The position numbers and the translations under genes were made by a program. Positions 2,288-62,311 of a DNA stretch of 64,000 nt are shown here, piece after piece. The notes beneath the pieces are model-generated. The model ran no database searches. It saw only the letters and a list, made by a program, of their open reading frames with translations, and was not told where the DNA came from. The DNA is from a virus, in the IMG/VR virus record IMGVR_UViG_3300033489_000601, positions 1,020-65,019 of that record. One strand, given 5' to 3'. The first letter of the stretch is position 1; each line of letters opens with the position of its first letter.

Positions 2288-2305
2288 TTACACCCGCGTC
2301 TGTGA
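2288..2305. promoter_or_regulatory. Operator palindrome copy (1 mismatch) TTACACCCGCGTCTGTGA
   Basis: Matches YTACANNCGCGNNTGTAR; lies upstream of the 2239 gene. Confidence 0.6.
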
Positions 2306-2323
2306 AAGCAAACAACTCGATCG

Positions 2324-2554
2324 TTAGTTCCAGCCGCCAGCGGACACCCCGAGCCTGCGAGACATCTTCCCGATGCTCGCCACCGTGGGTGATGCGCGGC
2401 GGTGCGCCCACGCGCTGACTGACTGCCGGGAGACGCCGAGCAGCCGCGCCAGCCCCGCGTATCCGCCGCGGGTGATGCGAGCGAGGCGCTGGAGCGTTGT
2501 CGGCCCGTCGTTCGCTTGTCGTGTACGCCTCGCGGCGCGTGCTGCGGTCACCAT
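2324..2554 (-). CDS. Cro-like XRE-family HTH protein
   Basis: GYAGLARLLGVSRQSVSAWAHRRASPT is a canonical XRE HTH. It is the first gene downstream of the leftward promoter. Confidence 0.8.
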   Translation of the reverse strand: MVTAARAARRTRQANDGPTTLQRLARITRGGYAGLARLLGVSRQSVSAWAHRRASPTVASIGKMSRRLGVSAGGWN

Positions 2555-2560
2555 GTTCGA

Positions 2561-2591
2561 TGGTCTACAGCCGCGGCTGTAAGTGCGTCAA
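2561..2591 (-). promoter_or_regulatory. Leftward sigma70-like promoter with operator CTACAGCCGCGGCTGTAA (2565-2582) in the spacer
   Basis: Minus strand reads TTGACG-N18-TAGACC, with the near-perfect palindrome filling the spacer. Confidence 0.75.
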
Positions 2592-2662
2592 TGACTCTTT
2601 ACGCCTGCGCGTCAAGCGGCGCGTGGGATACGCTTGTTTTCAGGGCACATACGAGGAGACTC

Positions 2663-3094
2663 ATGGTCACGAAAAAAGAGACAAGGGACGCGTTTAACGT
2701 CGGACGTCGGCTCGGTGAGAGCGAGCATCGCGTGATGCTCTCTGTGCTCGAGCGGTACGTGCTCGTGACGCACCAGGGGAACGAGAGCAGCGCCGCGCGG
2801 GCGCTCAAGATCACGATGCAGGTCATCAACCGCTCGCGGCATCAGCGCCGGATCGGCCTCGGTTTGGCGCAGGCGCTCGCTCGTGAGATGGGGACGACCA
2901 TCGAGAAACTCGTCGCGGCGGCTCACGATGAATGGCCGAACCGGACGCTGGCGATCCCGCTCGCGAAAGAACACGGCGTGAGCGAGGATGCTGTGATGCG
3001 TGTAATGGCGCTTCCGTACAACCGCGCGCCCGACGTCTCGCGCGTGACGTGGGTGCTGAAGATGGTCGACGCCGAGCGGTTGAAAAAGGCTTAG
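2663..3094 (+). CDS. Putative CI-like repressor (HTH)
   Basis: GAGGAG SD then ATG 2663; HTH-like NESSAARALKITMQVINR...IGLGLAQALAREMGTTIEKL; sits between two outward-facing operator-bearing promoters and is divergent from the cro-like gene. Confidence 0.7.
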   Translation: MVTKKETRDAFNVGRRLGESEHRVMLSVLERYVLVTHQGNESSAARALKITMQVINRSRHQRRIGLGLAQALAREMGTTIEKLVAAAHDEWPNRTLAIPLAKEHGVSEDAVMRVMALPYNRAPDVSRVTWVLKMVDAERLKKA

Positions 3095-3140
3095 AACGTA
3101 GCTGTTCTGAGAATCTTCGCGCGCCGAGCGTAAAGACCTC

Positions 3141-3170
3141 TTGACGCTTCTACATCCGCGGGTGTAGAGC
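3141..3170 (+). promoter_or_regulatory. Rightward sigma70-like promoter with operator CTACATCCGCGGGTGTAG (3150-3167)
   Basis: TTGACG-N18-TAGAGC followed by GGAGGT-ATG; same architecture as the leftward promoter. Confidence 0.75.
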
Positions 3171-3179
3171 GTTGGAGGT

Positions 3180-3287
3180 ATGAAGCATGGTGATTCGCTC
3201 GACCACACGGCGCAGGCTGACCCGCTGTTCTCCTGCCGATTCTGCGACCATGACGCGCTCGCCGGCAACGGCCGGAGGTGGGCGTGA
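3180..3287 (+). CDS. Small hypothetical protein (35 aa, CxxC)
   Basis: GGAGGT SD directly before ATG; MKHGDSLDHTAQADPLFSCRFCDHDALAGNGRRWA; first ORF after the promoter. Confidence 0.45.
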   Translation: MKHGDSLDHTAQADPLFSCRFCDHDALAGNGRRWA

Positions 3288-3700
3288 GCGGCGCGGTCTG
3301 GGCTGTGGCCGTGGCGCTCCTCGCGGGCGCGATCCTTCAGGTCTGCGAGGTCAGCGCGGGCAACGGGCGCGTCGTCGACTGGCGCACGATTCGGAGCGGG
3401 GAAATCCTTGTCGAGGGCGCCGATGCCTTCGACGTGGCCTATCTCTTCGTCGGTCTCATTGGCGAGGAGGCGGCGCTCGCCCTGCTCGGCGACGACGCGG
3501 TGAAGCCCCCCGCGCCTCCGGCAGAACCGATCCGTGTCCACGCCTTCATGACACAGGCGAACGGGGGGCGACGTCGCACCTTCGACGTGGGCCCCTTCCG
3601 AGTGACCGTCGACCCCTGCGAGGACGACGCCGGACAGGCGGCGTTCACTGAGCGCCTCGCGATTCTGGCTCATCGCGAGATGAACGGCGGTGCCTCGTGA
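3278..3700 (+). CDS. Hypothetical protein with hydrophobic N-terminus
   Basis: 140-aa ORF, GC3 bias, coupled to the next ORF by GTGA. Confidence 0.6.
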   Translation: MGVSGAVWAVAVALLAGAILQVCEVSAGNGRVVDWRTIRSGEILVEGADAFDVAYLFVGLIGEEAALALLGDDAVKPPAPPAEPIRVHAFMTQANGGRRRTFDVGPFRVTVDPCEDDAGQAAFTERLAILAHREMNGGAS

Positions 3701-3790
3701 GCGCCCCCTCGTTCCTCATCGCTGGAAAGGGGCCCGCGCCGACGATGGCCGCGGTCTCACCGCCCGCCGTCGGCTTCCGCGCGTCTACAG

Positions 3791-3808
3791 CTACACCCGC
3801 GCCTGTAG
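3791..3808. promoter_or_regulatory. Operator palindrome copy CTACACCCGCGCCTGTAG
   Basis: Exact consensus match. Confidence 0.7.
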
Positions 3809-3820
3809 ACGAGGCCGTCC

Positions 3821-4033
3821 GTGGCTGACGGCGCGCCTATCCATGACGTCGAGCGCATGGGCTTCGACGACCACGTGCGGGCGCTGGCTCCGCTCCGGCG
3901 CTGCGCCTCCTGCGGGCGGCGCAAGGCCCGCGCGAGCGATGGGTTCTGCGGCGGGTGCGGCGCGAAGCCGAGCGCGGCGGCGTACGAGACGTACCAAACG
4001 TATTCGTGGAGCGAGAGGAGCAAGGGGTCGTGA
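3821..4033 (+). CDS. Zinc-ribbon protein
   Basis: CASC...CGGC (two CxxC); stop overlaps the GTG of the next gene. Confidence 0.6.
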   Translation: MADGAPIHDVERMGFDDHVRALAPLRRCASCGRRKARASDGFCGGCGAKPSAAAYETYQTYSWSERSKGS

Positions 4034-4965: not shown

Positions 4966-4966
4966 A

Positions 4967-9413: not shown

Positions 9414-9471
9414 AGCCGGCCCACACGCGAGGATGTAGACCGCGGCCAGAGCCCCGCGCGAGGGTAGCACG

Positions 9472-9867
9472 ATGACCGCGGCGCTCCTCACCGCTCGAGC
9501 CGTCGCCGCTCAGCTCAGCGTGAGCGAGCGGCAGGCCTATCTGCTGATGCGGGAGATGGTGCACGTTCAGCTCGGCCGCTCGATCCGCGTGACTCCCGCC
9601 GCTCTCGCGGCCTATGTTCGCCGCCGGACGGCCATCCCATGCGCGACCAACACAGGCTCTATCGGCGGAAGAAGAACGGGCGCGAACTGCCTACGTGGTG
9701 GTGTGAGTACTACGACGCAGGCCACAAGCGCATCCAACGATCCACAGGATGCCGCGACCGGAAGGCCGCCGAGGCTCGCGCTCGTGAGCTCGAACGCGTT
9801 GCCGCTGATCCGGCCCACGCAGCCGCGCACAAGATCACGATCAGGGACGCTCTCCAGCGAGTCGTAG
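9472..9867 (+). CDS. xis: Excisionase-like winged-HTH protein
   Basis: LLTARAVAAQLSVSERQAYLLMRE...LGRSIRV, immediately upstream of and overlapping the integrase. Confidence 0.75.
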   Translation: MTAALLTARAVAAQLSVSERQAYLLMREMVHVQLGRSIRVTPAALAAYVRRRTAIPCATNTGSIGGRRTGANCLRGGVSTTTQATSASNDPQDAATGRPPRLALVSSNALPLIRPTQPRTRSRSGTLSSES

Positions 9868-10979
9868 TCGACCGGGCCGCGCAGGGGCGTGCGAAGGGCA
9901 CCGTCGAGATGTACGCCTCGAAGGCCGGCGCGTTCCTGCGGGTCTGGGGCGAGGACTTCCCGCTTGCTCAGGTCGACGCCAAGCCCGTGGACGCCTTCAT
10001 CGAGCAGCGGCTCACGGAAGGCGCATCACGCAGCACGATCGGCAAAGAACTAACGACGCTGCGGATCGCGTTGAAGCTCGCGCGCCGGCGCGGCGAGTAC
10101 CACCTCGCGATCGAGCAGGTGATGCCTGAGCGGTGGACGGTGAACTACGAGCCGGGGACGCGCCACCTCACCGCCGAGGCCTTCGAGCGGCTGCTCCCTG
10201 AACTCCTCGCTGACCGCGGCGCTCACGTGTGCTTCATCGTCGCGACGGGCGCGGACCTGGCGCCGAGCCTCACCGCACGCCGCATCGACATCGATCTCCA
10301 GAAGGGCATGGTGCAGGTGGGCGGCACGAAGACGGCGCACCGCGCTCGCACCGTGCCGATCGCCTTCCCTTGGCAGCGCGCCCTCCTCGCTCGCGTGCTC
10401 GAGGTCTGCGGCGGCAAGCCGGGACCGCTCTTCCGCCCGTGGGGGAACGCGGTGCGCGAACTCGCGGCGGCGTGCCAGCGCGCGGGCGTTGAGCGCGTGA
10501 CGCCTCGTGACCTCCGACGGACCTACGCACAGTGGTTGCGAGGCGCGAAGGTGCCGCCGTCGCTCGTGGGGCCGATGATGGGCCACGGCGACGGGCGCAT
10601 GGTCGAGAAGGTCTACGGGCGTCTCACGCCGGAGGAGCTCGCGCGCCAGGTCGCCGCCTACGCCCCGCAGGAGGCCGCGGGGCTCGTGTTGAGCCTGAGC
10701 GAGGACGGGCGCCTGAGCGTGTCGCGAGAGCCGACCTCGGCCGAGCTGAACGCGCTGAGGGCGGGGCTCGCTCGGCTCGAGGAGCGGTGTCACGCCCGTG
10801 TCACGCGTTCGGTCCGTGGCGGTGCAGAAAATGCGGGGGGTGCAGAGCGGGAGCCGCTCAAAACGTCCGTAAATACAGTGCCCAGGGGCGGAATTGAACC
10901 GTCGACACGAGGATTTTCAGTCCCCGCGTCACGGCGCTCCTACGACGGTAGATCAAGCCCACAGCGGCGGGCGGGGTGA
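9639..10979 (+). CDS. int: Tyrosine recombinase/integrase; C-terminus runs through attP
   Basis: N-terminal arm-binding region (WWCEYYD...IQRSTGCRDRKAAE), SAM-like core, PRDLRRTYA, MMGH and EKVYGR (Tyr nucleophile); box I reads TGADLAP. Confidence 0.88.
   Translation: MRDQHRLYRRKKNGRELPTWWCEYYDAGHKRIQRSTGCRDRKAAEARARELERVAADPAHAAAHKITIRDALQRVVVDRAAQGRAKGTVEMYASKAGAFLRVWGEDFPLAQVDAKPVDAFIEQRLTEGASRSTIGKELTTLRIALKLARRRGEYHLAIEQVMPERWTVNYEPGTRHLTAEAFERLLPELLADRGAHVCFIVATGADLAPSLTARRIDIDLQKGMVQVGGTKTAHRARTVPIAFPWQRALLARVLEVCGGKPGPLFRPWGNAVRELAAACQRAGVERVTPRDLRRTYAQWLRGAKVPPSLVGPMMGHGDGRMVEKVYGRLTPEELARQVAAYAPQEAAGLVLSLSEDGRLSVSREPTSAELNALRAGLARLEERCHARVTRSVRGGAENAGGAEREPLKTSVNTVPRGGIEPSTRGFSVPASRRSYDGRSSPQRRAG
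10878..10925 (-). mobile_element. attP core: 3' half of tRNA-Phe(GAA)
   Basis: Reverse complement GGGGA-CTGAAAA-TCCTC-GTGTC-GACGG-TTCAATT-CCGCC-CCTGGGC-AC comprises anticodon arm, T arm and acceptor 3' strand; no D arm or 5' half; phage genes on both sides. Confidence 0.88.
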
Positions 10980-11005: not shown

Positions 11006-11212
11006 CTAGTTCGCGCTACGCCGCCGGATCTGCGTCGTTTCCTCGGCGTCCGCGTCGAGGCTCGCGAGCCACTCCACGAGATCGGCGGGCGCCTCACGCG
11101 GCTCGAGCGCGTCGAGGTGCCGCCGCAGGATCGGCCGGAGCAGCTCGCGGTATTTCGGCGACACGTCGGGCGCGGCGTCGGCGGGCGGGGTGAAGGGGCA
11201 TGGGCGGCTCAT
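11006..11212 (-). CDS. Hypothetical protein
   Basis: 68 aa, ATGA-coupled to the upstream gene. Confidence 0.55.
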   Translation of the reverse strand: MSRPCPFTPPADAAPDVSPKYRELLRPILRRHLDALEPREAPADLVEWLASLDADAEETTQIRRRSAN

Positions 11213-12462
11213 GACGCCCTCCGCTCTTCCGCAGCGAGCCGGAGAGAGAGGCTCACCACAAGCCGCTCCAGGTCCTCGTTCCTCGCGGTGGCGCGCGCGA
11301 GTCGCTCCTCCAGGCGCGCGGCTTCCTCTCCGGCCTCGGTCACCACTCCCGCTCGCTCTACAACCGCGCCTGTAATTGCGGACGCAGAAGGGCCGCCGAC
11401 GGTCGCCTTGTAGCCCGCGCCGTGAAGCGCGCTCGACGCCCGCTCGAGCGCCTGCTCTGCCGCGTCAGTCCACGAGCACGAGGTCGCGACGCCCTCGCGC
11501 TTCATGCCCCATCGCAGCACGACGCGCCCGTCGCTCGTGACGTTGACGAGAAGCCCCGGCTCGGTGGCCGTGCCTTCGCGGGCTCCTGCGCGCGTGAGGA
11601 CCGAGGCGATGCGCTCGCGGGCGGTGCTGTAGCCGAACGCCTGGCGCTCGGCGAGGTCGCGCGCGAAGCCGGGGGGCGGTTGGGGGGCGGCGGTGCGGAC
11701 GGGGGCCCATTCCTGCTCTATGCCGTCGAGCTTACCGATCTGCCAGCCCGCGCCGTCGATCTGCCAGCAACCGGGCTCCTCTCGAAGCACGCCCTCGCGT
11801 CCTTTGGTGCTTGTGCCAATCCCCCGCACGAGCACGCCCTCGCGCACCCACGCCGGGAGCGCCGCCACAGGCACGGGAACGCACTCCATTCGCCCGCAAA
11901 TCCGCTTGCGAAGACAGTACCACCCCGATCCGCGCGCCGCACCCTCGCGCCACGTGCAGGCCATCCCGCATGAGGGGCACGCAGGCGCTTCCCCGTGCGC
12001 AGTTGGCGGCACGATGGTCTCACGGCGCGTCCAAGCGGGCGCTGGGACAAACTCGACCTCCAATTTGATCTTGTTGAACCAATCCTCAGCGAACGCGAGG
12101 AAGAACTCTATCGCTGCGCGCTCGCTCTTCCAGACGTGAGCGTGCTCGATCGAGTTGCTCCATGTGCCGACATGCTGCGCTTCCTCCACGATGCGCACGA
12201 AGTAGGGGATTGTGCTGTGATACCGCTTGAGCACAACGCGGGTGTCGAGAGGGCGCGGGCTCGGCATCGTCGGAGTGACCGGAGCGGCGGTGACCGGGGC
12301 CACGTCGTCCGCGTCCGCGCGCGAGGGCATGCCCGCGAGCCCGTCGGCGCTGATGGGCGGCGCACCGGGAACGGTGGCGGGTGCGGCCTCCCTCTCGCGC
12401 TTCGCCTGCGTCTTCTGTTTGCTGTTCTTCGTCGCCTTTGATATACGCGTCGCGTTCTTCAT
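11209..12462 (-). CDS. Multi-domain hypothetical protein (basic/Pro-rich N-terminus, Zn ribbon, coiled-coil end)
   Basis: GAGGAGGT SD; CPSCG...C..C motif; 417 aa; contains an operator copy at 11358-11375. Confidence 0.7.
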   Translation of the reverse strand: MKNATRISKATKNSKQKTQAKREREAAPATVPGAPPISADGLAGMPSRADADDVAPVTAAPVTPTMPSPRPLDTRVVLKRYHSTIPYFVRIVEEAQHVGTWSNSIEHAHVWKSERAAIEFFLAFAEDWFNKIKLEVEFVPAPAWTRRETIVPPTAHGEAPACPSCGMACTWREGAARGSGWYCLRKRICGRMECVPVPVAALPAWVREGVLVRGIGTSTKGREGVLREEPGCWQIDGAGWQIGKLDGIEQEWAPVRTAAPQPPPGFARDLAERQAFGYSTARERIASVLTRAGAREGTATEPGLLVNVTSDGRVVLRWGMKREGVATSCSWTDAAEQALERASSALHGAGYKATVGGPSASAITGAVVERAGVVTEAGEEAARLEERLARATARNEDLERLVVSLSLRLAAEERRAS

Positions 12463-12492: not shown

Positions 12493-12526
12493 AGAGCGCC
12501 GGGCGTTCGTGCCCGGCGCTCTTTTT
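12493..12526 (+). terminator. Rho-independent terminator
   Basis: Perfect stem AGAGCGCCGGGC-GTTCGT-GCCCGGCGCTCT followed by a T tract. Confidence 0.75.
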
Positions 12527-12731
12527 ACTTTCGCTTGCTCTTCGGCGGGCTCGTCCCAACCTCACCCTCGAGCGCCTCCACGCCGCGCGTGAGCGCCCGC
12601 TGCACGAGCGCGTGGCGCGAGATGCTGATCCCGCCCGCCCGCTCTTTCATCACCTCGCAGAGCGCGTCGATGCGCTCCATCATCTTGCCGTCCACCTTCA
12701 CGGTGAGCGGCGTCTTGGTCTCATCGGCCAT
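12525..12731 (-). CDS. Ribbon-helix-helix (Arc/CopG-like) regulator
   Basis: TPLTVKVDGKMMERIDAL...ISRHALVQRALTRGVEALE is an alternating beta-strand followed by two helices. Confidence 0.8.
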   Translation of the reverse strand: MADETKTPLTVKVDGKMMERIDALCEVMKERAGGISISRHALVQRALTRGVEALEGEVGTSPPKSKRK

Positions 12732-12732
12732 G

Positions 12733-12791
12733 AGGTGCACTCTGCCGAAAGAAGGTGCACCCGTCAAGCGGTATGTGCTAGGGTGCACCTT
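12733..12791. promoter_or_regulatory. Divergent promoter region with three GTGCAC boxes
   Basis: AAGGTGCACCC (12752-12762) and GGGTGCACCTT (12781-12791) form a perfect inverted repeat; third box at 12735; minus-strand TTGACG between them. Confidence 0.65.
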
Positions 12792-12803
12792 GGAGGTTAG
12801 GAG

Positions 12804-13118
12804 ATGGCGATAAATAGATGGCGCGGCGAGGTGATGCGGGTGACGCGGACGGCGTATGGGCTCCGTGTGGCGCTGGGTGCGCTCGGCATGCAGGTCGACG
12901 ACGCGTGGATCGCCGTGGTTCACGAGCGCATCAAGGATGACGTGGAGACTGTGGCCGTGGGCGGGAAGGCCTCGGTCAACGCGCCGGCGCTCGCCATCAG
13001 CCGCGAGGACGCCGTGCGGCTCCTTCGTGCGACGGGGAGCAGCGAACGGCAGCCGAGTGAGGCGCTCTGCTCGCTCGTCGATCGGCTCGAGGTGTTCGTC
13101 GAGGAGCCCGCGCGATGA
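12804..13118 (+). CDS. Hypothetical protein
   Basis: GGAGGT/AGGAG SD; 104 aa; ATGA-coupled to the next gene. Confidence 0.65.
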   Translation: MAINRWRGEVMRVTRTAYGLRVALGALGMQVDDAWIAVVHERIKDDVETVAVGGKASVNAPALAISREDAVRLLRATGSSERQPSEALCSLVDRLEVFVEEPAR

Positions 13119-16760: not shown

Positions 16761-16786
16761 GGTAGGGTGCTCGCGGAGGTGAGGAG

Positions 16787-17212
16787 ATGGAGAAGCGTGA
16801 AGATGATGAGGTTGCGCGTGCTGTCGCCGCGGAGCGCGAGCGGTGCGCGGGGATCGTGGAGCGCGGCGACGGGCATCGGCGCGCTGACATGGCGGCTGAG
16901 ATCCGCGCGGGCCATCCAGCCGCGGTCACGACGCCCGCGCGCTACGTGCCGACGCCCGCCGCGCTCCGGCGCTCGACGCTCGCGGCTACGCTTCAGCTGT
17001 CGCGTGTGAGCGCTGCGTTCGCGGCTGAGGCCTTCGAGGAAGAGACCGCGCTGGTGACCGCAGCCCTCGAAGCGGCTCGCCGCATGCAGCCGCCGGCGGC
17101 GCCGCTGAAGGTCGCCTCGCTCGAGACCATCGTGCGCATCCTCGCGACCATGGCGCTCCACGCGTCGCCGACCCCGGCTGACGCTCGTCTGCTCTTGCAG
17201 TTTATCGGGTAG
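16787..17212 (+). CDS. Hypothetical protein (antisense insert)
   Basis: TAGGGT then GGAGGTGAGGAG SD and ATG; AERERCAGIVE motif common in phage proteins. Confidence 0.65.
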   Translation: MEKREDDEVARAVAAERERCAGIVERGDGHRRADMAAEIRAGHPAAVTTPARYVPTPAALRRSTLAATLQLSRVSAAFAAEAFEEETALVTAALEAARRMQPPAAPLKVASLETIVRILATMALHASPTPADARLLLQFIG

Positions 17213-17312
17213 AGTTCCAGCCGCGGCTGTAGGCACTCGCACGCGGATAGCACAGATCCGCGTGCTGGGATAGGGCTGCGTGCGAGGGGTGGGGCTGTGG
17301 TACCGTAGCGGG

Positions 17313-20064: not shown

Positions 20065-20292
20065 CTACGGCTGAGGCGCCGCGCCGTCTACAGCCGCGGG
20101 TGTAGAACAGCACGCCGCGAGCTCGTGCAGCGTCTCCGTCGTCACGCGCGCGCCGGGCCAGCGCTTCCCGCGCGTGACCTCGCGGCACTCCGCGCAGCGC
20201 GTCCCCGCGAACACCCGCGTGAGACCGCAGCCGACGCAGAGCCCGCGAGCTCGGCGAGAGGCGTATAACGCGCGGGCGTCAGCGGGGGTCAT
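20065..20292 (-). CDS. Small zinc-finger protein
   Basis: GLCVGCG...RCAEC; an operator copy (20088-20105) lies within its 3' end. Confidence 0.55.
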   Translation of the reverse strand: MTPADARALYASRRARGLCVGCGLTRVFAGTRCAECREVTRGKRWPGARVTTETLHELAACCSTPAAVDGAAPQP

Positions 20293-22876: not shown

Positions 22877-22906
22877 CCCTATCACAGGTTACAACCGCGG
22901 CTGTAG
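22877..22906 (-). promoter_or_regulatory. Operator (22889-22906) plus TAGGGT -10-like box driving the methylase cassette
   Basis: Minus strand reads CTACAGCCGCGGTTGTAA-cctgtga-TAGGGT-ggccgc-GGAGGT. Confidence 0.65.
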
Positions 22907-26551: not shown

Positions 26552-26603
26552 GGGGTAGACCTACAGGCGCGGGTGTTATAGGCTGCGCGGCGGAGGTTGG
26601 GTG

Positions 26604-28176: not shown

Positions 28177-28224
28177 GGATCTACAGGCGCGGTTGTAGTA
28201 GGGTCAGAGGCGGAGGCTGGGAGA

Positions 28225-30042: not shown

Positions 30043-30099
30043 GAGGGGCTACAGGCGCGGGTGGAGGTGTGGTAGAACGGCGGCGGAGGTTGAGAGAGT

Positions 30100-48461: not shown

Positions 48462-49925
48462 TCAAAAACCCCTGTGATCATTCCCCCAGCGGTTATCCGC
48501 CGCGCCGCCATGCGCGCTCACCATCAACGACGGCGGCAGATAGATCCGCCCGCCGCCCTGCGCGAGGAAGTCCACCGCCTCGATGAAGGCCGACGCGACG
48601 TCGCCGTGGCTCGACGTGCTAGCGCCCTCACTGAAGATCGTCAGCCGCCCGCTCGGCGAAGGCTTCTGCTTCATCTCTTTGAGCTGCTTCGCCAACCGCT
48701 CGAAGCCGAGAAGCGCGAAACCATTGCTGTTCGCGATCACGCGCGCGCCGATCATCGCGGTCTCTTTGTCAGTGAAGCCGTCATGCACGCGCATCTTGTT
48801 GCGCGCGCCGTGCTCCCGCACCGCTTCGATGTAGTGCATGTCCGCCACGAACTCCGTGCAGCCGTACCGCTGCGCCACAAGCGAGAACTCGTCCACCACG
48901 AGCCCCGGCACGAGCGGCGCCCCCGGCTGCGGCACGATCTCGCAGACCTCGAGCGGCCCGTACATATTGCCCACGCGCGCCGTCGGCACGCACGCGGCGG
49001 CGTTGCGCCGGAAGGCTGCGTCGAGGCCAGCCACGAGCCGGCGCTCCCCGGCCTCGAGCGCGCGCTTCAGCGAGGCGTCGATCACGTCGTGGTCGAAAAA
49101 GAACGACGTCCCCGCGGACATCGGGATCGCCTTGTATTCGCGCTGCCAGGTCTGCTCGTCCTCCTCGTCGGCACGCGTACCAGCCTCAGTCAACGTAGGG
49201 TTCGCCACCCATGACGGCGCCCACGCGACACACTGCCCGTCGGTCTCGCCGCGCTCGTACGCCTTGTAATGCGCATCGAGCGTCGCGAACGGTGAGGAGA
49301 TCATCCATAGCTTCGACAGCGGCTGAGTCGCCATCGACGGCTTCAGCGACGCGATAACCTCGGTCGCGGGGTTCGCGCCCGTCTCGCGGTCCTCCCATTT
49401 CGCCATCTCGTCGCATATCGCGCCGATGCACGTCGGCCCCGAGACGCCCTTGATGGTCGCGGGGAACACGCGGAAGATCACGCGCTTGTCATTCAGCGCG
49501 CTCTTCGTCTCAATGGTGGGCCGCTGGCCGTCAACGCGCGAGTACTCGTGACGCATCGCCTTCAGGATCTCCTCAATCGTGTCGAGGCGCTCCTTCGCCG
49601 CGTCCTTGTCCTGCGCAATGATCACGAACACCCCCACGTCGCCCGGCGGCACCACATGCGCGCCGAACAACGTCTCGACGACCGCGACGCGGCACATCGT
49701 CGACGACTTTCCGCCGCGCCGGCCCACCCGCAGCACGAAGCGCCGCCGCCCGCTGAGGTAGAAGCGACGCAGTTGCTTCCACCACCACGGCGAGATCGCG
49801 GGCCAGCCGTGGTGGACGAGCATGCGGTCGAGGCTCTCGAGCCGCTCGAGCATGTGCGCCCCGTACTCAGCCGCGGTCATGACGCGGGGCGGGGCGGGAG
49901 CGGTGGGCTTCTTCTTCGATGTCAT
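48462..49925 (-). CDS. terL: Terminase large subunit
   Basis: Walker A RVGRRGGKSS, Walker B AICDEMAKW, ISSP motif, RNase H-like GLDAAF and HGDVASA. Confidence 0.9.
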   Translation of the reverse strand: MTSKKKPTAPAPPRVMTAAEYGAHMLERLESLDRMLVHHGWPAISPWWWKQLRRFYLSGRRRFVLRVGRRGGKSSTMCRVAVVETLFGAHVVPPGDVGVFVIIAQDKDAAKERLDTIEEILKAMRHEYSRVDGQRPTIETKSALNDKRVIFRVFPATIKGVSGPTCIGAICDEMAKWEDRETGANPATEVIASLKPSMATQPLSKLWMISSPFATLDAHYKAYERGETDGQCVAWAPSWVANPTLTEAGTRADEEDEQTWQREYKAIPMSAGTSFFFDHDVIDASLKRALEAGERRLVAGLDAAFRRNAAACVPTARVGNMYGPLEVCEIVPQPGAPLVPGLVVDEFSLVAQRYGCTEFVADMHYIEAVREHGARNKMRVHDGFTDKETAMIGARVIANSNGFALLGFERLAKQLKEMKQKPSPSGRLTIFSEGASTSSHGDVASAFIEAVDFLAQGGGRIYLPPSLMVSAHGGAADNRWGNDHRGF

Positions 49926-49931
49926 AGGGAT

Positions 49932-49949
49932 CTACAGGCGCGGCTGTAA
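49932..49949. promoter_or_regulatory. Operator palindrome directly upstream of terL
   Basis: CTACAGGCGCGGCTGTAA, 6 nt from the ATG. Confidence 0.7.
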
Positions 49950-49977
49950 TCGTAGACGAACGGAAGCCGCGGGCGGC

Positions 49978-50445
49978 TCATATCCGCCGCCACGTCGCCC
50001 CTTTCTCACGCAGCAGCGCACGCACGTCCGCCGGACAGACGTCCTCGACCATCCGGATCTCCATCCCCACCGCGCCGCACGCCGCGGCCCGCTGCTTGAT
50101 CGCATCCCACGTGCCGCGGCTCCACGGCGCTGGCCACGCGCAGAAGCGCTCCGTCGTCGTCACGTAGGCGTTGCGGATGAGCGGGGCGGCGCGTCCGTGG
50201 AGCCCGTAGTCGGGAAGCCACACTTCGCTGGAACCCGCCGCCTGGTCGACGCCCTCAGCGCCACCGTGGACGACGCGGAGCCCAGCGGCTGCGATGTACG
50301 CGCGGACGTCGGCGATGATATGGCGGTATGTATCCCAGCACGGCGCTTGGTTGTGGATACCGCTCGGCGGACGGCAGCCGCTCACCGCGAGGAAGCCGGA
50401 GCGCATCGCGCCGATGGGTGGGCCAGTCCAGAGGGCCACGGTCAC
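49978..50445 (-). CDS. SLOG-superfamily protein (YspA/DUF2493-like)
   Basis: VSGCR, VVHGGAEGVDQAA, GRAAPLIRN, SRGT. Confidence 0.78.
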   Translation of the reverse strand: MTVALWTGPPIGAMRSGFLAVSGCRPPSGIHNQAPCWDTYRHIIADVRAYIAAAGLRVVHGGAEGVDQAAGSSEVWLPDYGLHGRAAPLIRNAYVTTTERFCAWPAPWSRGTWDAIKQRAAACGAVGMEIRMVEDVCPADVRALLREKGATWRRI

Positions 50446-52207: not shown

Positions 52208-52438
52208 TCATGGATCCCCGGCGCGCACCTGCCCCACCGACGGCGCTACACCCGCGGGAGATGCCTCGGTCACCACGCCACGGCGGCGCCTCTCTATAAG
52301 GAGAGCGTCCGCCAGCCGCGCGGCGTACTCCGTCGACCGCCCCGACAACACGAGAGCGACCGCCGCCGCATCCCACAGCGCCCACTCCCCCGCCGACGCG
52401 GGCCGCACGGGCTCCACCTTCTTCTCCTCGTCCATCAC
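52208..52438 (-). CDS. Hypothetical protein
   Basis: Operator 52460-52477, then TAGTAT/TATAGA box and GGAGGTTGGGTGATG. Confidence 0.6.
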   Translation of the reverse strand: MMDEEKKVEPVRPASAGEWALWDAAAVALVLSGRSTEYAARLADALLIERRRRGVVTEASPAGVAPSVGQVRAGDP

Positions 52439-52496
52439 CCAACCTCCTCGCTCTCTATACTACACCCGCGGCTGTAAGTGCACGCGCGATCTGTCC

Positions 52497-57734: not shown

Positions 57735-57788
57735 CAAGTATTTCAGCCGCGCCTGAAGATAGTTCAGAAACAGCACTCAAGAGGCTGG

Positions 57789-58382
57789 TTACAGCACGCC
57801 CGCGAGAGGGTTCTTCGTGAAGCGCGGGATGCTCTCACGCCGTAACGGCTTCATGCGGCGGAAGATGAACAGCACCTCGTCGCGGAGCCCGACGTGCTCA
57901 GCGTAGGGCGCCACGCCGACGACGAGCCCCATCGGCAGCGCCTGAAGCACCTTCGCCGAGTAGGTGTAGCCCGCCTCGATGAGCGTCTTGTCATCCGCGG
58001 AACCCACGTCAGCGCGGACGTTGAAGCCGAAAGGGTACGTCGGCTCGAGGAAGACTGGGGTGCCGAGGCCGTGCGCGATCAGCCAGTCGGAAGCCCGCGC
58101 GCAGACCTCGCGGTGCTCGTCGGTGCGTCCCGAGAAGTGGTGTAGATCGGTAGCGTGCCGCGCCTTGTCGTACAGGGGCAGCGTCTCGACCTCGACCGTC
58201 ACCGCTTCTCGGTCGATTTCTGCACGCAGTTCCACCATGTTCTCGTAGGACGTGTCGCCCCATGGGTTGCCCCACGAGAAGATCATCGGCAGCGACGTGC
58301 GCGCTAGATGCCCCTCCGCAGCAGGGAAGAGAGGCTTCTGCACATCGGTCGGAAGATCTATCAGCCGCAGTTTGATGTTCAT
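57789..58382 (-). CDS. Putative PD-(D/E)XK nuclease-fold protein
   Basis: H..VC..A..WL....LEP.Y....RADV......IEAG.T..K. Confidence 0.5.
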   Translation of the reverse strand: MNIKLRLIDLPTDVQKPLFPAAEGHLARTSLPMIFSWGNPWGDTSYENMVELRAEIDREAVTVEVETLPLYDKARHATDLHHFSGRTDEHREVCARASDWLIAHGLGTPVFLEPTYPFGFNVRADVGSADDKTLIEAGYTYSAKVLQALPMGLVVGVAPYAEHVGLRDEVLFIFRRMKPLRRESIPRFTKNPLAGVL

Positions 58383-59095
58383 CTCATCGCTCCCTTCACC
58401 ATCTTGCTCAGTTCCTCGAGGCCAAACGCGCGCCCGTTTCTGTTCGTCCGTCCCTCAGCCGTGAGCGTCGCGATCACCGACCGCAGCCCCACGCCCTCGA
58501 CGGCGTAGAGCTCGCGCGCCCTGGCGAGCGTCGCCTGCTCGCTCGGCTCCTCCACGAGCGTCGCCCCTTCGCGGCGGAAACCGAACGCCTCGCGCCCCGG
58601 CCGGCCAAGGGCGTCGCCGCGGTCACGCTTCACCGCGAGCGCGGCCTTCGTGCGCGCGCCGATCATGTCCTTCTCGAACTCGGCCACACCAAGGAGCACC
58701 GTGCGCAGGAGCTTCGATGTGGGATCGCTCGTCGCGGCGCCGCCGCCCGTGACGTACATGATGCGCGCCTTTGCTCGCTCAACCTCGCGGCCCACAAGCA
58801 GCGCGGTCAGCGGGTCACGGCCCAGGCGGTCGAGGCGGTAGGCGACGAGGTAGCTTGCCCGGCGCGCCTTCACCTCAGCGAGAGCACGGAGCATGGCGCC
58901 CCGGTCAGCGAGCTCAGCGCCGCCTGTCACCTTCTCGTCGTGCCAGGCGAGCACCTCCACGCCCTCACGCACGGCCCACGCCTCGATGGCTGCACGCTGT
59001 GCGTCAAGGCCGAGATCCTGCTCCTCGGTCGACACGCGGATGTAGGCGATAGCGGTGAGGCGCGGAGCCTTCTTCGGGCGGCGGCGGGTGACCAT
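58379..59095 (-). CDS. Serine recombinase (resolvase domain plus short recombinase domain)
   Basis: AIAYIRVSTEEQ (catalytic Ser), VTGG....R, LVAYRLDRLGRD, EFEKDMIGARTKAAL, FGFRR. Confidence 0.92.
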   Translation of the reverse strand: MVTRRRPKKAPRLTAIAYIRVSTEEQDLGLDAQRAAIEAWAVREGVEVLAWHDEKVTGGAELADRGAMLRALAEVKARRASYLVAYRLDRLGRDPLTALLVGREVERAKARIMYVTGGGAATSDPTSKLLRTVLLGVAEFEKDMIGARTKAALAVKRDRGDALGRPGREAFGFRREGATLVEEPSEQATLARARELYAVEGVGLRSVIATLTAEGRTNRNGRAFGLEELSKMVKGAMR

Positions 59096-59319
59096 CAGCC
59101 GACCGCCTTCAGGAGACCGAGCGTCACCAAGCTGTCGAACACGAAGCGGGGCATCGGGGCAGGCTTGCCCGCGAACCGTACGCACGTATCCGATGCCTCG
59201 GTCACCACGTGCGATCCCTCCGAGCGGTGCATGAACACCGCGCCGGGCTTCACCGCCACCGACGCAACCATCTCCACTCCCCGATCCGTCACCAGGCCGC
59301 GCATCTTCGTTCGCTTCAT
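59095..59319 (-). CDS. Small hypothetical protein
   Basis: 74 aa, TGATG-coupled to the recombinase. Confidence 0.55.
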   Translation of the reverse strand: MKRTKMRGLVTDRGVEMVASVAVKPGAVFMHRSEGSHVVTEASDTCVRFAGKPAPMPRFVFDSLVTLGLLKAVG

Positions 59320-59619
59320 GAGAAACAGCCTACAGCAGAACCGTACGGTTAGCGAGCGTTAACCGTACGTCGTGTGTCGAATTCCTCGCACCATGTAGGC
59401 GCTGCCGTCGCTCGCCTCCTGCGGATTTCGGCCGCGGCTCGATGTCCGGCGGGGGGTGGATCATCGACGATCCACCCTGTGCGCTGGGGCCGCCGCCGGA
59501 GCCGCACGTCGTAAACTATGCATGTGGGATGCAACGTTCCGGGCGGTAGTGACGCTGGAATTTTCAGATCCACTCCCCCGCCATCCGCTCCGGCGGCGGT
59601 TTCATCCGCTCGAGCGGAT

Positions 59620-59702
59620 GTTGTCCCTCCTGTCCCCTATGTTGTCCCCCCTATGCGGGACGCGTTTGAGCCTACAAAACAAGCTGTCCCCTATGTCCCC
59701 CC
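59620..59702. repeat. TGTCCCC(C)TAT direct repeats, candidate replication origin
   Basis: Five copies at about 59622, 59631, 59643, 59685 and 59694, in a 600-bp non-coding gap downstream of the primase-helicase. Confidence 0.6.
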
Positions 59703-59941
59703 ATCTATGATGAGATCTCTACAAGAAAAGCGCGGAGCCGGGCGGCGGTGTGGAGCGGCGCGTGGTGGCCGTGTGGTGGTGCCGACGTATACAGGTTCAG
59801 CGCACAACCCCCGGGACACGACCGGGATGCCGGGGCACGCCTGCAACCATCTGATATCGCTTGTGAAAAGACGCCCCCCCATGGCAAAACGAGGTGGGGG
59901 GGCAGTGGGGGGACGCCGGGACATGCGGCGCTTGCACTTGA

Positions 59942-62311
59942 TCAGGAGTGGGGGACGAGGTGGTGAACCGCGGCCAGTTCGACCTCGAGGGGCGTCACGG
60001 TCGGCTGAGCATGTCGCTCGTGCAGCCACATCCAAACGTTCAGGCGCTCGCCGTAGTGGGTGCGGGTTTTCTTCCGCTCGTACCCAAGTCGTCGCAGAAC
60101 AGCGCCCATCCTGAGCGCGTCGAGGTGCTTCCTCTGCGCGGGCTCGAGCTTCATCGAGTCGAAGATGTCGCTGATGTGGATCTGGTCCTGCGGGAACTTC
60201 TGCGGCTGGCGGTTGGGCTTCTTTGCGAGCCAGCGCTCAACGACCTCGAGCCATGGGTCGTCCTCGACGGCGTGGCGCTCAGCGGCGAGCTCGCGGGCGG
60301 CGTCTTCCTGCGGGGTGAGCCACCATTTGAACGGGTTCTCTTCGGCCTCGATGCCGGCAGTCTCGTGCGCCTGGTAGGAGCGGAGGAGGTGGACGGCTTC
60401 GGCCCAGACCTGATCGCGCATGAGGGCGAGAGCGGCGAGGTCGATGCGCTGTCCGGCGAGGGGGTCGAGGTGATCGAGGTCGATGATCCAGAAGCGCCGG
60501 GAGCCCGTGGGGTCGGTGAGGAACTTCTCCTTATTCGTGCTGCCGACGATGACGCCGCTCCGCTTGTGGGAGGCGACAGCTGCGGCGTAGGGCGCGCGGA
60601 AGGTGTCTTCTTGGCACGTGATGAAGCCCTTGACCTCGCCGGCGTGGCGCATGCTCGTGATGGCGTCGATCTCGCCCCACTCGTAGATCCACGCGCTGTG
60701 GAGCTGCAGGTAGGCGTCCTTGTTCGCGATGTCCATCTTCGTGTTGCGGAACCACGGCGAGCCGATGACGCGGAAGAAGCCGCTCTTCTTGAGCCCCTGA
60801 TGGCCAAAGAGCACGAGCGCTGTGTCGACCTGGCAGCCGGGGACGAACGCGCGGGCGACGGCGGAGATGAGCCACTTCTGCAGGAAGACCGCGGCGAGTG
60901 GCTGCTCCTCGAGGTTGATCTTCAGCACCATCTGCGCGAGCGCGTCGACGCGCGAGACGCCATCCCACGCGGGAAGCCCGTCGAGGTAGGCGCGCACGGG
61001 GTGGAACGACTGCTCGTGGGCCACGTGGATGACCGCGGCCTTCACGTTCTCGGCGGACGGCGCGAAGCCGTGGTCGAGTTCGATGCGCTCGCGCAGCGCG
61101 CTCAGGTCGTGCCCCTCGCGCTGCGGCTCGCCGTCGACGACGGGGTTGAGGGTCATCTCGTTGAAGCTCAGGCGCCGCGCGGGGTTCGTCGGGCAGCCGC
61201 CGTAGATATGCCGCACGACGGCGCAGACGTTCGCGTATGTGCCCTTGCTCTCGCCCGTGCGCTTGTCGCGCTTCAGCGACAGCACGGGGATGCTCTGCAC
61301 GTCGCGGAGGAGCGCCGCGGCGTCGGGGCTGAGGGTGGGGCTCTCCCCCTGGATGGCGGCTCGCTCCTCGGCCTCTACAGCCGCGGATGTAGAGGTGGGC
61401 GCAGCAGAGCGCGGAGGGGCATCGGGCACGGCGAGCGGCTTCGTCGCGCCCTCGCGCAGGCCGTCGCGGATGGCCTTCAGCGTGTTCGCCTCGCGCTCGG
61501 CGTCCCACCCGCCGGCGCGCGTTGCGTGGAGGAGTCGCGCCTCGGCCTCGTGCTCAGCGAGGAGCCCCGCGCCGACATAACCGCCGACCTTGTGCGCCTT
61601 CGCGTACGCCGCGGTATGCCGGGCGCCCTTCGGCTCGCTCTGCAGGTCACGGGCGGCTCCGTCGAGCGCGGCGAGGGCGTAGCGGCGAGGGCGGGTGTCG
61701 CTGGCCGCTGGCGCGCGCGCAGGGAGGGGTGCAGGCGGCGTGGCGGGCGGTGATGACCGCGGCCCTCTCCGCCGCATCGTCGCGAGCAGCTCCTCCGGCA
61801 CGTCGGCCATCGGCACACTGGCGTCCTCCCACGCGTATGCGTCGCCGCTCGCGTGGCGCGAGGGGGGCGCGATGACGTAGCCGCCGTCGCCGCGCACGTC
61901 GCAGCCGGGAGCGATCTTCTTCGTGCTGTTCGGCACCTTCGCACCGCCGGGGTGGCGGTAGTACAGATGCAGCCCGCCTGAGCCCGTGCGCGCGGCGCGC
62001 GTCGGCGGGAAGAGCGCGCGTGCGGCTTCGAGGTCGGCGCCCCGGAGGTCGATGTCGATGACCACGGTCCCGCTCTCGGCGCCTGTAGCGATCGCGACGT
62101 TGTAATCGCTGGCCCCCCACGCTGCGCGTATAACCGCGGCATCCGTCGAGGCGTCCTTGAGTCCGTGCGGGGTGGCGGGGTGCTTCGCGACGTCAGCGCA
62201 CTTCGGCTTGCCGCACGAGCACGCGCCGGCCGCGGTCACCGTGTGGCAGGGGAAGACCGCGAAGCCGTCGGCGGCGAGGGCGAGAGCGGCGGCGAGGAGA
62301 GAGTCGTTCAT
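59942..62311 (-). CDS. Bifunctional Prim-Pol primase fused to VirE/VapE (SF3-like) helicase
   Basis: AVFPCH, KHPATPHGLKDAS, NVAIATG, VVIDID, TGSGGLHLYY, DVRGDGGYVIAPPS; helicase LVLFGHQGLKKSGF, WIYEWGE, FRAPY, VGSTN, DPTGSRRFW. Confidence 0.95.
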   Translation of the reverse strand: MNDSLLAAALALAADGFAVFPCHTVTAAGACSCGKPKCADVAKHPATPHGLKDASTDAAVIRAAWGASDYNVAIATGAESGTVVIDIDLRGADLEAARALFPPTRAARTGSGGLHLYYRHPGGAKVPNSTKKIAPGCDVRGDGGYVIAPPSRHASGDAYAWEDASVPMADVPEELLATMRRRGPRSSPPATPPAPLPARAPAASDTRPRRYALAALDGAARDLQSEPKGARHTAAYAKAHKVGGYVGAGLLAEHEAEARLLHATRAGGWDAEREANTLKAIRDGLREGATKPLAVPDAPPRSAAPTSTSAAVEAEERAAIQGESPTLSPDAAALLRDVQSIPVLSLKRDKRTGESKGTYANVCAVVRHIYGGCPTNPARRLSFNEMTLNPVVDGEPQREGHDLSALRERIELDHGFAPSAENVKAAVIHVAHEQSFHPVRAYLDGLPAWDGVSRVDALAQMVLKINLEEQPLAAVFLQKWLISAVARAFVPGCQVDTALVLFGHQGLKKSGFFRVIGSPWFRNTKMDIANKDAYLQLHSAWIYEWGEIDAITSMRHAGEVKGFITCQEDTFRAPYAAAVASHKRSGVIVGSTNKEKFLTDPTGSRRFWIIDLDHLDPLAGQRIDLAALALMRDQVWAEAVHLLRSYQAHETAGIEAEENPFKWWLTPQEDAARELAAERHAVEDDPWLEVVERWLAKKPNRQPQKFPQDQIHISDIFDSMKLEPAQRKHLDALRMGAVLRRLGYERKKTRTHYGERLNVWMWLHERHAQPTVTPLEVELAAVHHLVPHS

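What the first reader, a model, noticed from the sequence alone, without database searches (positions are those of the whole stretch)
2288..61392. Genome-wide 18-bp palindromic operator network (YTACANNCGCGNNTGTAR), including intragenic copies
Seen: ten exact copies (2565, 3150, 3791, 11358, 20088, 22889, 28181, 49932, 52460, 61375), four with one mismatch (2288, 17215, 26561, 30049) and weaker ones at 9421 and 52246. Two fill the spacer of the divergent TTGACG-N18-TAGA promoters that flank the HTH gene at 2663. Others sit 4-9 nt from the start codons of baseplate J, spike, hub and terL. Others lie inside coding sequence (primase linker, 11209 gene, 20065 gene). Established: lambdoid repressors bind a few operators at two loci, while cluster A mycobacteriophages use many dispersed asymmetric stoperators. 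Inference: one dimeric HTH protein (2663..3094 or the Cro-like gene) silences promoters and possibly blocks elongation across the whole genome, using symmetric sites, which would be an unusual distributed immunity system.
Basis: partly seen in the sequence, partly recalled or inferred. Interest (0 to 1): 0.85.

Follow-up and report, generated by a model that had tools for sequence, protein, structure and literature searches.

The report
Dispersed palindromic operators of a phage repressor
A temperate phage carries 14 copies of an 18-bp palindrome, almost all next to gene starts, and they are most likely the binding sites of its own repressor, a real but already known kind of genome-wide immunity control.

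Summary
YTACANNCGCGNNTGTAR occurs 10 times exactly and 4 times with one mismatch in a 65-kb viral record, against none expected. Twelve of the 14 sites lie within 65 nt upstream of a start codon (P about 1e-11).

Two sites fill the 18-nt spacers of the outward-facing TTGACG promoters that flank a 143-aa XRE-type HTH gene (2663-3094). That gene diverges from a 76-aa Cro-like gene, a lambda-like immunity layout.

Seven related metagenomic loci with a homologue of the 143-aa protein keep YTACA-N8-TGTAR palindromes at the same places, each with its own central bases. Five relatives that share the tail genes but have no detected homologue have no such palindrome in about 320 kb.

The late-region sites belong to a repeated operator/-10/RBS module. 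It drives small antisense genes inserted at junctions of the baseplate operon, and relatives lack these inserts.

Best reading: this is a repressor-operator network, with the sites placed for promoter occlusion. Binding was not tested, and which of the two HTH proteins binds is inferred. Elongation blocking is unsupported.

The idea is not new: phiC31, L5 and SPbeta have dispersed repressor sites. I rate it a new member of a known kind, of moderate interest. The same scan had already noted the antisense cassettes on this DNA.

The parts
2663..3094 (+). rep: 143-aa XRE-type HTH protein, the candidate repressor
   Evidence: Weak P22_Cro hit. 23 of 38 family members hit HTH_3. AF2 model pLDDT 93.5. 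Nearest folds are DdrO, ClgR, Stl and phage repressors. The gene is flanked by operators here and in 7 related loci.
2324..2554 (-). 76-aa Cro-like HTH_3 gene, first gene of the leftward early operon, apparently leaderless
   Evidence: HTH_3 E=1.2e-7. PHROG transcriptional repressor families. Its ATG lies 7 nt after the TAGACC -10. Synteny is conserved.
2565..2582 (.). operator in the 18-nt spacer of the leftward early promoter (TTGACG at 2586-2591 on the minus strand, -10 TAGACC)
   Evidence: same position in L063-L068
3150..3167 (.). operator in the 18-nt spacer of the rightward early promoter (TTGACG 3141-3146, -10 TAGAGC)
   Evidence: same position in relatives
2288..2305 (.). auxiliary operator (1 mismatch) between the Cro-like gene and gene 1502-2245
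   Evidence: equivalent site L065:770
3791..3808 (.). auxiliary operator 641 bp downstream of 3150, inside a possible 43-codon linker ORF, 12 nt before the GTG at 3821
   Evidence: equivalents L063:2077 and L065:1848
11358..11375 (.). intragenic site near the 3' end of gene 11209-12462
17215..17232 (.). intergenic site (1 mismatch) after gene 16787-17212, 56 nt before gene 17289-17519
20088..20105 (.). site in the 3' end of ORF 20065-20292, 62 nt before the ATG at 20025
22889..22906 (.). operator upstream of TAGGGT -10, GGAGG and a 37-codon ORF followed by the DNA methyltransferase gene; a terminator-like hairpin lies just upstream
26561..26578 (.). operator (1 mismatch) between the baseplate J start (26551, minus) and antisense cassette gene 26604-27017 (plus)
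   Evidence: cassette absent in relatives
28181..28198 (.). operator between gene 27481-28176 (minus) and antisense cassette gene 28225-28617 (plus)
30049..30066 (.). operator (1 mismatch) between GpP-like gene 28630-30042 (minus) and antisense cassette gene 30100-30477 (plus)
49932..49949 (.). site 6 nt before the terL ATG, inside a 19-codon linker ORF (49922-49981) that overlaps both neighbours by ATGA
   Evidence: the linker ORF was read from the sequence shown
52460..52477 (.). operator upstream of a -10 (TATAGA), GGAGG and gene 52208-52438 (minus)
61375..61392 (.). intragenic site in the linker of the Prim-Pol/VapE primase gene
   Evidence: a palindrome lies in the same linker of the 63% identical primase of L067
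9421..9438 (.). possible weak site (2 mismatches), intergenic, upstream of the integrase region
57741..57758 (.). possible weak site (2 mismatches), intergenic, 41 nt before the start at 57699

Best explanation
The 18-bp palindromes are operators of the phage's own immunity module. A dimer of the 143-aa XRE-type protein (rep, 2663-3094) most likely binds the two YTACA half-sites. The 76-aa Cro-like protein possibly binds the same sites. Rep sits between two outward-facing early promoters of the form TTGACG, 18 nt, TAG..., with the transcript starting at or near the start codon. Each promoter has the operator inside its spacer, so bound protein would exclude RNA polymerase and shut off both early operons. 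The leftward operon carries the Cro-like gene and replication genes. The rightward operon carries recombination genes and the integrase. Auxiliary operators lie 280 and 640 bp downstream (2288, 3791), and they may aid repression by looping. The other sites place the same control on further transcription units. Five belong to a repeated 45-55-nt module of operator, TAGGGT-like -10, GGAGG and ATG. Three of these modules drive small antisense genes inserted into the baseplate operon. The operator centre lies at about -22 to -30 relative to the inferred transcription start, which is a repressing position. Shown here: enrichment, placement, conservation of position, and co-occurrence with rep. Inferred: binding, which protein binds, repression, and looping.
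For: Enrichment: 14 sites against 0.02 expected. Placement: 9 of 14 sites are fully non-coding although only 10% of 18-mers are (P=1.6e-6), and 12 of 14 have a start codon within 65 nt beyond one end, against 8.7% expected (P=1.5e-11). Promoter geometry: operators fill the TTGACG-N18 spacers on both sides of rep. In relatives the same TTGACG, 18 nt, TAnnnn, 6-9 nt, ATG layout recurs. Comparative evidence: all seven loci with a rep homologue (L063-L068, L071) have YTACA-N8-TGTAR palindromes at the homologous places, and the centre differs between phages. Five structural relatives in which no rep homologue was detected have none in about 320 kb. Specificity: L063 and L066 share the operator core GGWGCWCC. 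Their rep recognition helices are similar to each other (SQQVINTALN, SQQVVNQAVS) and differ from the window's TMQVINRSRH. The Cro-like recognition helix is nearly the same in phages with different operator centres. Protein: XRE fold plus a helical C-terminal domain, nearest to DdrO, ClgR, Stl and phage repressors. Distant homologues are paired with M78 (ImmA/IrrE-type) proteases, as master repressors are. No hairpin covariation. The distance from operator to -10 varies from -3 to +7 nt, which steric repression tolerates but face-dependent activation does not.
Against: No binding or expression data exist. A strict E. coli-type promoter scan finds no promoter at any site, because the -10 hexamers (TAGAGC, TAGACC) lack T at position 6. 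The promoters are therefore inferred from conservation only. Rep and the Cro-like protein always occur together, so co-occurrence cannot separate them. The helix-operator covariation rests on seven related sequences. Three start-adjacent sites (28181, 30049, 49932) lie 1-3 nt short of any leaderless promoter geometry, so their effect on the late genes is unexplained. Foldseek E-values are weak (0.04 or worse). The record is about 74% complete and the host is unknown.
Confidence: 0.72

Rival explanations
1. The 76-aa Cro-like HTH_3 protein, not the 143-aa protein, is the main binder of the palindromes. It would act as an early lytic regulator that turns down many promoters. The 143-aa protein would then recognise another element.
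For: It is a clear HTH_3 protein with PHROG repressor hits. It is encoded directly next to operator 2565 and co-occurs with the palindromes in every locus. Its conserved recognition helix could read the invariant outer YTACA bases.
Against: Its recognition helix barely changes among phages whose operator centres differ, whereas the rep helix tracks the operator core. A second invariant element, GCGTAAAG-N5-TTGACGC, is present only at the two early promoters and in all relatives, and it is an equally good target for an invariant helix.
Confidence: 0.15
2. The palindrome is an activator site or phage-specific promoter element that switches on middle or late and accessory genes, in both directions at the divergent junctions.
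For: Five sites precede -10/RBS modules that lack a recognisable -35. Four abut the start codons of late genes. Dyad-symmetric activator sites are known at the late promoters of P2 and Mu (own knowledge).
Against: The site centre lies at about -22 to -30 or over the -10, not at -41 or -61. Its distance to the -10 varies by 10 nt. At the two early promoters it fills the spacer of a promoter that already has a near-consensus -35. Relatives with homologous tail operons have no such site. Rep is not MerR-like. No phage RNA polymerase or sigma factor was found among the genes scanned.
Confidence: 0.06
3. The palindromes are recombination or mobility sites. They could be crossover sites of the phage's small serine recombinase, or the ends of mobile gene cassettes. 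This would explain why they lie exactly at the edges of the inserted antisense genes.
For: The three baseplate-region sites lie at the boundary of inserts that relatives lack. A resolvase-type recombinase is encoded at 58379-59095, and also in L068.
Against: Each insert has a site at one end only. The symmetric CGCG centre gives no polarity. The sites sit in promoter spacers around rep in loci where no recombinase is seen. The shared module extends through the -10 and RBS, which points to a regulatory unit.
Confidence: 0.04
4. A host transcription factor binds the sites and ties phage genes to a host signal.
For: The outer half-sites are the same in all related phages. The rep fold resembles the host regulators DdrO and ClgR.
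Against: The central bases are phage-specific yet uniform within this phage, with CGCG in 14 of 14 sites. The sites always flank the phage rep gene, and they are absent from relatives in which no rep was detected.
Confidence: 0.03

Closest known systems
Streptomyces phage phiC31 repressor with dispersed conserved inverted repeats
   Same: A temperate phage with many repressor sites dispersed across the genome (18-30 for phiC31 and L5 together, PMC4557955). From my own knowledge, the phiC31 sites are about 17-bp inverted repeats, mostly intergenic.
   Different: The phiC31 repressor gene lies downstream of the structural genes and makes three isoforms (PMC4557955). Here a small XRE protein sits in a lambda-like divergent rep/cro module. 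The primary phiC31 papers could not be read, so the sequences were not compared.
Cluster A mycobacteriophage (L5, Bxb1) stoperators
   Same: Dozens of repressor sites spread over the genome, including late regions and gene junctions.
   Different: Stoperators are asymmetric, oriented with transcription, bound by a monomer, and block elongation (PMC4557955, PMC4351075). These sites are symmetric and mostly promoter-proximal.
Bacillus prophage SPbeta master repressor MrpR and the SPBRE element
   Same: One repressor binds a repeated element in about ten promoter regions scattered through the prophage, shown by ChAP-seq (PMC10516654).
   Different: MrpR has a tyrosine-recombinase fold and a 15-bp motif. 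Here the candidate is an XRE HTH protein with an 18-bp palindrome.
Lambda-type immunity region (cI flanked by OL and OR, with a divergent cro)
   Same: The repressor gene lies between two outward early promoters that carry operators, and it diverges from a small Cro-like gene.
   Different: Each promoter has one operator instead of three tandem ones. There are ten more sites elsewhere. There is no S24 autocleavage domain, and the early transcripts appear leaderless.
Cluster O mycobacteriophage 17-bp palindromic repeats
   Same: More than 30 dyad-symmetric repeats spread through the genome, with about a third inside genes (PMC4351075).
   Different: Those repeats are not linked to promoters or to a known repressor, and the phages are not evidently temperate. 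Here the link to promoters and to an immunity module is clear.
XRE repressors of the ImmR/DdrO type with an M78 protease partner
   Same: The same two-domain architecture, best fold matches to DdrO, and distant homologues encoded next to an M78 peptidase.
   Different: No M78 peptidase is present in this record, so the induction route is unknown.

Membership tests
Lambda-like phage immunity module (repressor/operator switch) | A DNA-binding repressor gene divergent from a cro-like gene, with a control region between them | tested here: met
   rep 2663-3094 (+) and the HTH_3 gene 2324-2554 (-) are separated by 108 nt that hold operator 2565. The layout is conserved in 7 loci.
Lambda-like phage immunity module (repressor/operator switch) | Operators overlap the early lytic promoters | tested here: inconclusive
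   The operators fill the TTGACG-N18-TAG spacers and this geometry is conserved. However, a strict sigma-70 scan calls no promoter, and no transcription starts are known.
Lambda-like phage immunity module (repressor/operator switch) | The repressor binds the operators and confers immunity | not testable with these tools
   Needs EMSA, ChIP and superinfection assays.
Lambda-like phage immunity module (repressor/operator switch) | Operator sequence and repressor specificity vary together between heteroimmune relatives | tested here: inconclusive
   The operator centre differs per phage, and the rep helix groups with the operator core in L063 and L066. There are only seven related sequences.
Cluster A stoperator system | Asymmetric sites oriented with the direction of transcription | tested here: not met
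   The sites are dyad-symmetric at 14 specified positions.
Cluster A stoperator system | Sites within transcribed regions that stop elongation | tested here: inconclusive
   Two sites are deep in long genes, and three lie in short ORFs or 3' ends. No functional test was possible.
phiC31 dispersed inverted-repeat operators | Many conserved inverted repeats, mostly intergenic, in a temperate phage | tested here: met
   14 sites, 9 of them fully non-coding. An integrase is present.
phiC31 dispersed inverted-repeat operators | Homology of the repressor or operator sequence to phiC31 | not tested
   No phiC31 sequence was compared. The nucleotide (first 20 kb of the window) and TerL protein searches of the phage collection found no close phage.
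XRE (HTH_3) repressors of ImmR/DdrO type | N-terminal XRE helix-turn-helix fold | tested here: met
   23 of 38 family members hit HTH_3. The model (pLDDT 93.5) matches DdrO, ClgR and the 434 repressor with probability up to 0.99, though E is 0.04 or worse.
XRE (HTH_3) repressors of ImmR/DdrO type | A partner M78 (ImmA/IrrE) metalloprotease | tested here: not met
   No PF06114 match in the record. The protease is present next to distant homologues P0012 and P0013.
SPbeta MrpR/SPBRE | Repressor with a tyrosine-recombinase fold | tested here: not met
   Rep is an all-helical XRE protein of 143 aa.

The most novel reading that the evidence does not exclude
The operator network does more than silence early promoters. 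Rep-controlled antisense cassettes inserted at junctions of the baseplate operon, together with operators 4-9 nt from Shine-Dalgarno-less late start codons and inside the primase linker, would form a genome-wide circuit. In it, bound repressor acts as a roadblock or insulator, and early antisense transcription times or gates late-gene expression.
Probability: 0.15. Interest if true: 0.7.

Novelty: new member of a known kind. Interest (0 to 1): 0.45.

Why it matters
It gives a clean, testable regulon for an uncultivated high-GC temperate phage lineage: one small XRE repressor family, a conserved half-site (YTACA), and a phage-specific operator centre that may set immunity specificity. It also shows how accessory genes inserted into a tail operon may come under immunity control, by arriving with or acquiring a portable module of operator, -10 and RBS. 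It does not change the concept, because dispersed repressor sites are already established for phiC31, L5 and SPbeta.

Tried and rejected
- **RNA hairpin:** rejected. The inner positions are complementary in only 3 and 7 of 14 sites.
- **Restriction/modification target, replication iterons or packaging site:** rejected on placement in promoter spacers, and because the motif is enriched rather than avoided.
- **Partition (parS-like) sites:** no ParA or ParB was found among the genes scanned, and an integrase is present.
- **Same motif elsewhere:** the strict motif gives only single, chance-level hits in 2.9 million viral contigs.
- **Rep relatives:** none were found in viral contigs by a single-sequence search, in isolate genomes or in JGI metagenome contigs. 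They were reached only through the protein databases and the encoding-contig look-ups.
- **Annotated phages:** no usable relative.
- **De novo palindrome statistics:** swamped by codon periodicity, so not informative in relatives.
- **Generic promoter scan:** found nothing at the sites.
- **phiC31 primary papers:** could not be fetched.
- **Paralogy among the genes downstream of sites:** none.
Full report
**Observation**

Dinucleotide-preserving shuffles give 0.00 and 0.02 matches. The window is bases 1020-65019 of a 65,112-bp IMG/VR virus record, estimated to be 74% complete. The rest of the record adds no site.

Allowing two mismatches adds 9421 and 57741, against 0.34 expected. Both are intergenic. 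TACA-N8-TGTA occurs only at spacing 8.

The half-site consensus is (C/T)TACA(G>C)(C>G)CG. Positions 6/13 and 7/12 are Watson-Crick complementary in only 3 and 7 of 14 sites. The constraint is therefore on two protein-contacted half-sites plus the centre, not on an RNA stem.

**Genome context**

GC content is 68%. I called genes from codon statistics and annotated them with Pfam and PHROGs.

This is a temperate myovirus-like phage. Its recognisable genes are:
- a tyrosine integrase (9639-10979)
- Mu-like baseplate genes: baseplate J 25025-26551 and a GpP-like gene 28630-30042
- TerL (48462-49925)
- an RNA ligase
- a Prim-Pol/VapE primase (59942-62311)
- a PD-(D/E)XK nuclease
- an AAA_24 ATPase
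- DUF5131
- a small serine recombinase (58379-59095)

No close relative exists among isolated phages.

**Placement of the sites**

Nine of the 14 sites are fully non-coding, although only 10% of 18-mers are (P=1.6e-6). Twelve of 14 have a start codon within 65 nt beyond one end, against 8.7% for random positions (P=1.5e-11).

Two sites lie deep in long genes (11358 and 61375). Three lie in short ORFs or 3' ends (3791, 20088, 49932).

**The immunity region**

Gene 2663-3094 (+) encodes a 143-aa protein, called rep here. Gene 2324-2554 (-) encodes a 76-aa HTH_3 protein that is Cro-like.

Site 2565 lies in the 18-nt spacer between a TTGACG -35 and a TAGACC -10 that point leftward. The Cro-like ATG follows 7 nt after the -10. 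Site 3150 lies in the spacer of a rightward TTGACG-N18-TAGAGC promoter just downstream of rep.

Rep is therefore flanked by two outward early promoters, each with an operator in its spacer. This is a mirror image of the lambda arrangement, where cI lies between OL and OR.

The leftward operon continues into replication genes. L066 and L067 show a DEAD helicase and the primase there. The rightward operon carries the nuclease, the AAA_24 ATPase, DUF5131 and the integrase.

Auxiliary sites lie 277 bp (2288) and 641 bp (3791) downstream within these operons.

**Comparative evidence**

Rep has very few homologues. I fetched every close one with its DNA:
- L064: 73% identity
- L063: 47%
- L065
- L066
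- L067
- L068-L071: one phage in several samples

All keep the order Cro-like gene, rep, early operon with the PD-(D/E)XK nuclease. All carry 18-bp YTACA-N8-TGTAR palindromes at the homologous places: between the Cro-like gene and rep, and directly after rep inside a TTGACG-N18 spacer. L063 and L065 also have a third site a few hundred bp downstream, and L065 has a fourth after the Cro-like gene.

The outer five bases are constant. The central eight differ between phages:
- CGCG-centred in the window and L064
- CCGCCGGG in L065
- GGWGCWCC in L063 and L066
- CTTCGAGG and CTGCAAGG in L067
- ACTGATGC in L068

The early-promoter geometry TTGACG, 18 nt, TAnnnn, 6-9 nt, ATG is kept in all of them. 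This supports real promoters that give leaderless or near-leaderless transcripts.

As a negative control, I took five viral records with homologous tail and baseplate operons (37-41% identity for baseplate J). In them the rep-family search found no match. They contain no YTACA-N8-TGTAR in about 320 kb. These records are fragments, estimated 12-81% complete, so a rep gene on an unsampled part cannot be excluded. The palindrome therefore travels with the rep/cro module and not with the structural genes.

**Which protein binds**

Co-occurrence cannot separate rep from the Cro-like protein. The alignments can, weakly.

The rep recognition helix varies. L063 and L066 share an operator core and have similar helices, SQQVINTALN and SQQVVNQAVS. 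The window and L064 have TMQVINR(S/A)RH.

The Cro-like recognition helix (SRQ-S/T-VSAW) is almost unchanged among the window, L066 and L067, although their operator centres differ.

A second element, GCGTAAAG-N5-TTGACGC, is a pseudo-palindrome over the -35. It occurs only at the two early promoters and is invariant in nearly all relatives. It may be the Cro-like protein's target, or simply a promoter element.

**The rep protein**

Twenty-three of 38 family members hit HTH_3. The AlphaFold model is confident (pLDDT 93.5) and consists of eight helices.

The nearest solved folds are DdrO, ClgR, Stl, the SPC32H repressor and the 434 repressor. Foldseek probabilities reach 0.99, but E-values are 0.04 or worse.

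More distant homologues (P0012, P0013) are encoded next to M78 peptidases, the ImmR/ImmA or DdrO/IrrE arrangement. Different ACAAC-type palindromes lie between them and a divergent HTH gene. This record has no M78 gene, so how the repressor would be inactivated is unknown.

**The late-region sites**

Five sites share an aligned module of 45-55 nt: palindrome, TAGGGT-like -10, 6-7 nt, GGAGG, 7-9 nt, ATG. These sites are 22889, 26561, 28181, 30049 and 52460.

At 26561, 28181 and 30049 the module drives small plus-strand genes (26604-27017, 28225-28617, 30100-30477) that are antisense to the baseplate operon. Their composition is coding-like, but their third-position GC is lower than in the late genes. 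One belongs to a family of viral hypothetical proteins.

In relatives the homologous late genes are contiguous, and baseplate J overlaps its upstream gene by TGATG. The cassettes are therefore insertions at gene junctions. The 4-9 nt distance between palindrome and late-gene start codon reflects the edge of the insert.

The palindrome ends between -3 and +7 nt from the -10. This puts its centre at about -22 to -30, which fits steric repression but not class I or class II activation.

The site before terL lies inside a 19-codon ORF that overlaps both neighbours by ATGA. Site 3791 lies in a 43-codon ORF that is similarly overlapped. Translational coupling seems to have been kept around these inserted operators (read from the sequence).

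The primase-linker site has a counterpart within a few codons in the 63% identical primase of L067. L066 and L067 also have a site abutting the helicase start. Sites outside the immunity region are therefore not unique to this phage.

**Interpretation**

The best reading is a repressor-operator network. It has a lambda-like immunity core plus dispersed secondary operators at other transcription units, bound most likely by a rep dimer.

Binding, repression, looping and any roadblock effect are inferences. A strict sigma-70 scan finds no promoter at the sites. Three start-adjacent sites fit no promoter geometry for the late genes. The effect on late genes stays open.

**Comparison with known systems**

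Dispersed repressor sites are documented for phiC31 and L5 (18-30 sites). L5 stoperators are asymmetric and block elongation (PMC4557955). SPbeta MrpR binds SPBRE in about ten promoter regions (PMC10516654). Cluster O mycobacteriophages have more than 30 dyad-symmetric repeats of unknown role (PMC4351075).

This case differs in four ways:
- the repressor family (a small XRE protein)
- the lambda-like core
- the symmetric sites
- the portable operator-promoter-RBS module on antisense inserts

It is a new member of a known kind.

My comparison with relatives confirms them and shows they are insertions.

Noticed in passing
window 2586-2603 and 3129-3146; also L063, L064, L065, L066, L067: A second conserved element, GCGTAAAG-N5-TTGACGC (pseudo-palindrome CGTMAA-N6-TTKACG), overlaps the -35 of both early promoters. 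It occurs nowhere else in the window. It stays invariant in relatives whose 18-bp operator centres differ. It could be the Cro-like protein's site or an UP/-35 element.
   Followed up: partly
window 26561-27017, 28181-28617, 30049-30477: Three antisense gene cassettes, each with an operator, -10 and RBS, are inserted at junctions of the baseplate operon. Relatives L058, L060 and L062 have the homologous genes contiguous and translationally coupled. The late genes downstream of the inserts have no Shine-Dalgarno sequence.
   Followed up: partly
window 49922-49981 (minus strand): A 19-codon ORF containing the palindrome links the gene 49978-50445 to terL through ATGA overlaps at both ends. terL may therefore be translationally coupled rather than leaderless. 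A similar 43-codon linker ORF (3697-3828) contains site 3791.
   Followed up: no
window 11358, 20088, 61375 and 3791: All four sites that lie in ORFs are read in the same codon phase (xYT ACA NNC GCG NNT GTA Rxx, giving Thr-x-Ala-x-Val). One of the three phases is excluded because it contains a stop codon.
   Followed up: partly
L072:944-1582 and L074:1529-2122: Distant homologues of rep are followed directly by a Peptidase_M78 (ImmA/IrrE-like) gene. The window's record has none, so the induction mechanism here is open.
   Followed up: partly
window 12740-12804 and 16760-16790: Two further TAGGGT -10/GGAGG/ATG modules lack the 18-bp palindrome. The one at 12779 is flanked by GGTGCAC repeats and lies next to a small ribbon-helix-helix-like gene (12525-12740). 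This suggests a second local regulator.
   Followed up: no
window 20854-22856 (minus strand): A 630-aa ORF has weak, below-cutoff matches to a D12-class adenine methyltransferase N-terminus and to an internal LAGLIDADG domain, so it is possibly intein-containing. It is preceded by a 37-codon basic ORF and by the operator/promoter at 22889, with a terminator-like hairpin just upstream.
   Followed up: no
window 2552-2567, 3165-3182; L063-L068 equivalents: The early promoters keep the geometry -10 hexamer, 6-9 nt, ATG in all relatives, which implies leaderless early transcripts. This hints at a host in which leaderless translation is common. The host was not identified.
   Followed up: partly
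L066:1582-1599 and L067:4851-4868: In two relatives a palindrome of the same family abuts the start of the DEAD-box helicase gene of the leftward operon. No helicase gene was seen among the window genes I scanned. It may lie in the missing part of this 74%-complete record, so more sites may exist there.
   Followed up: no
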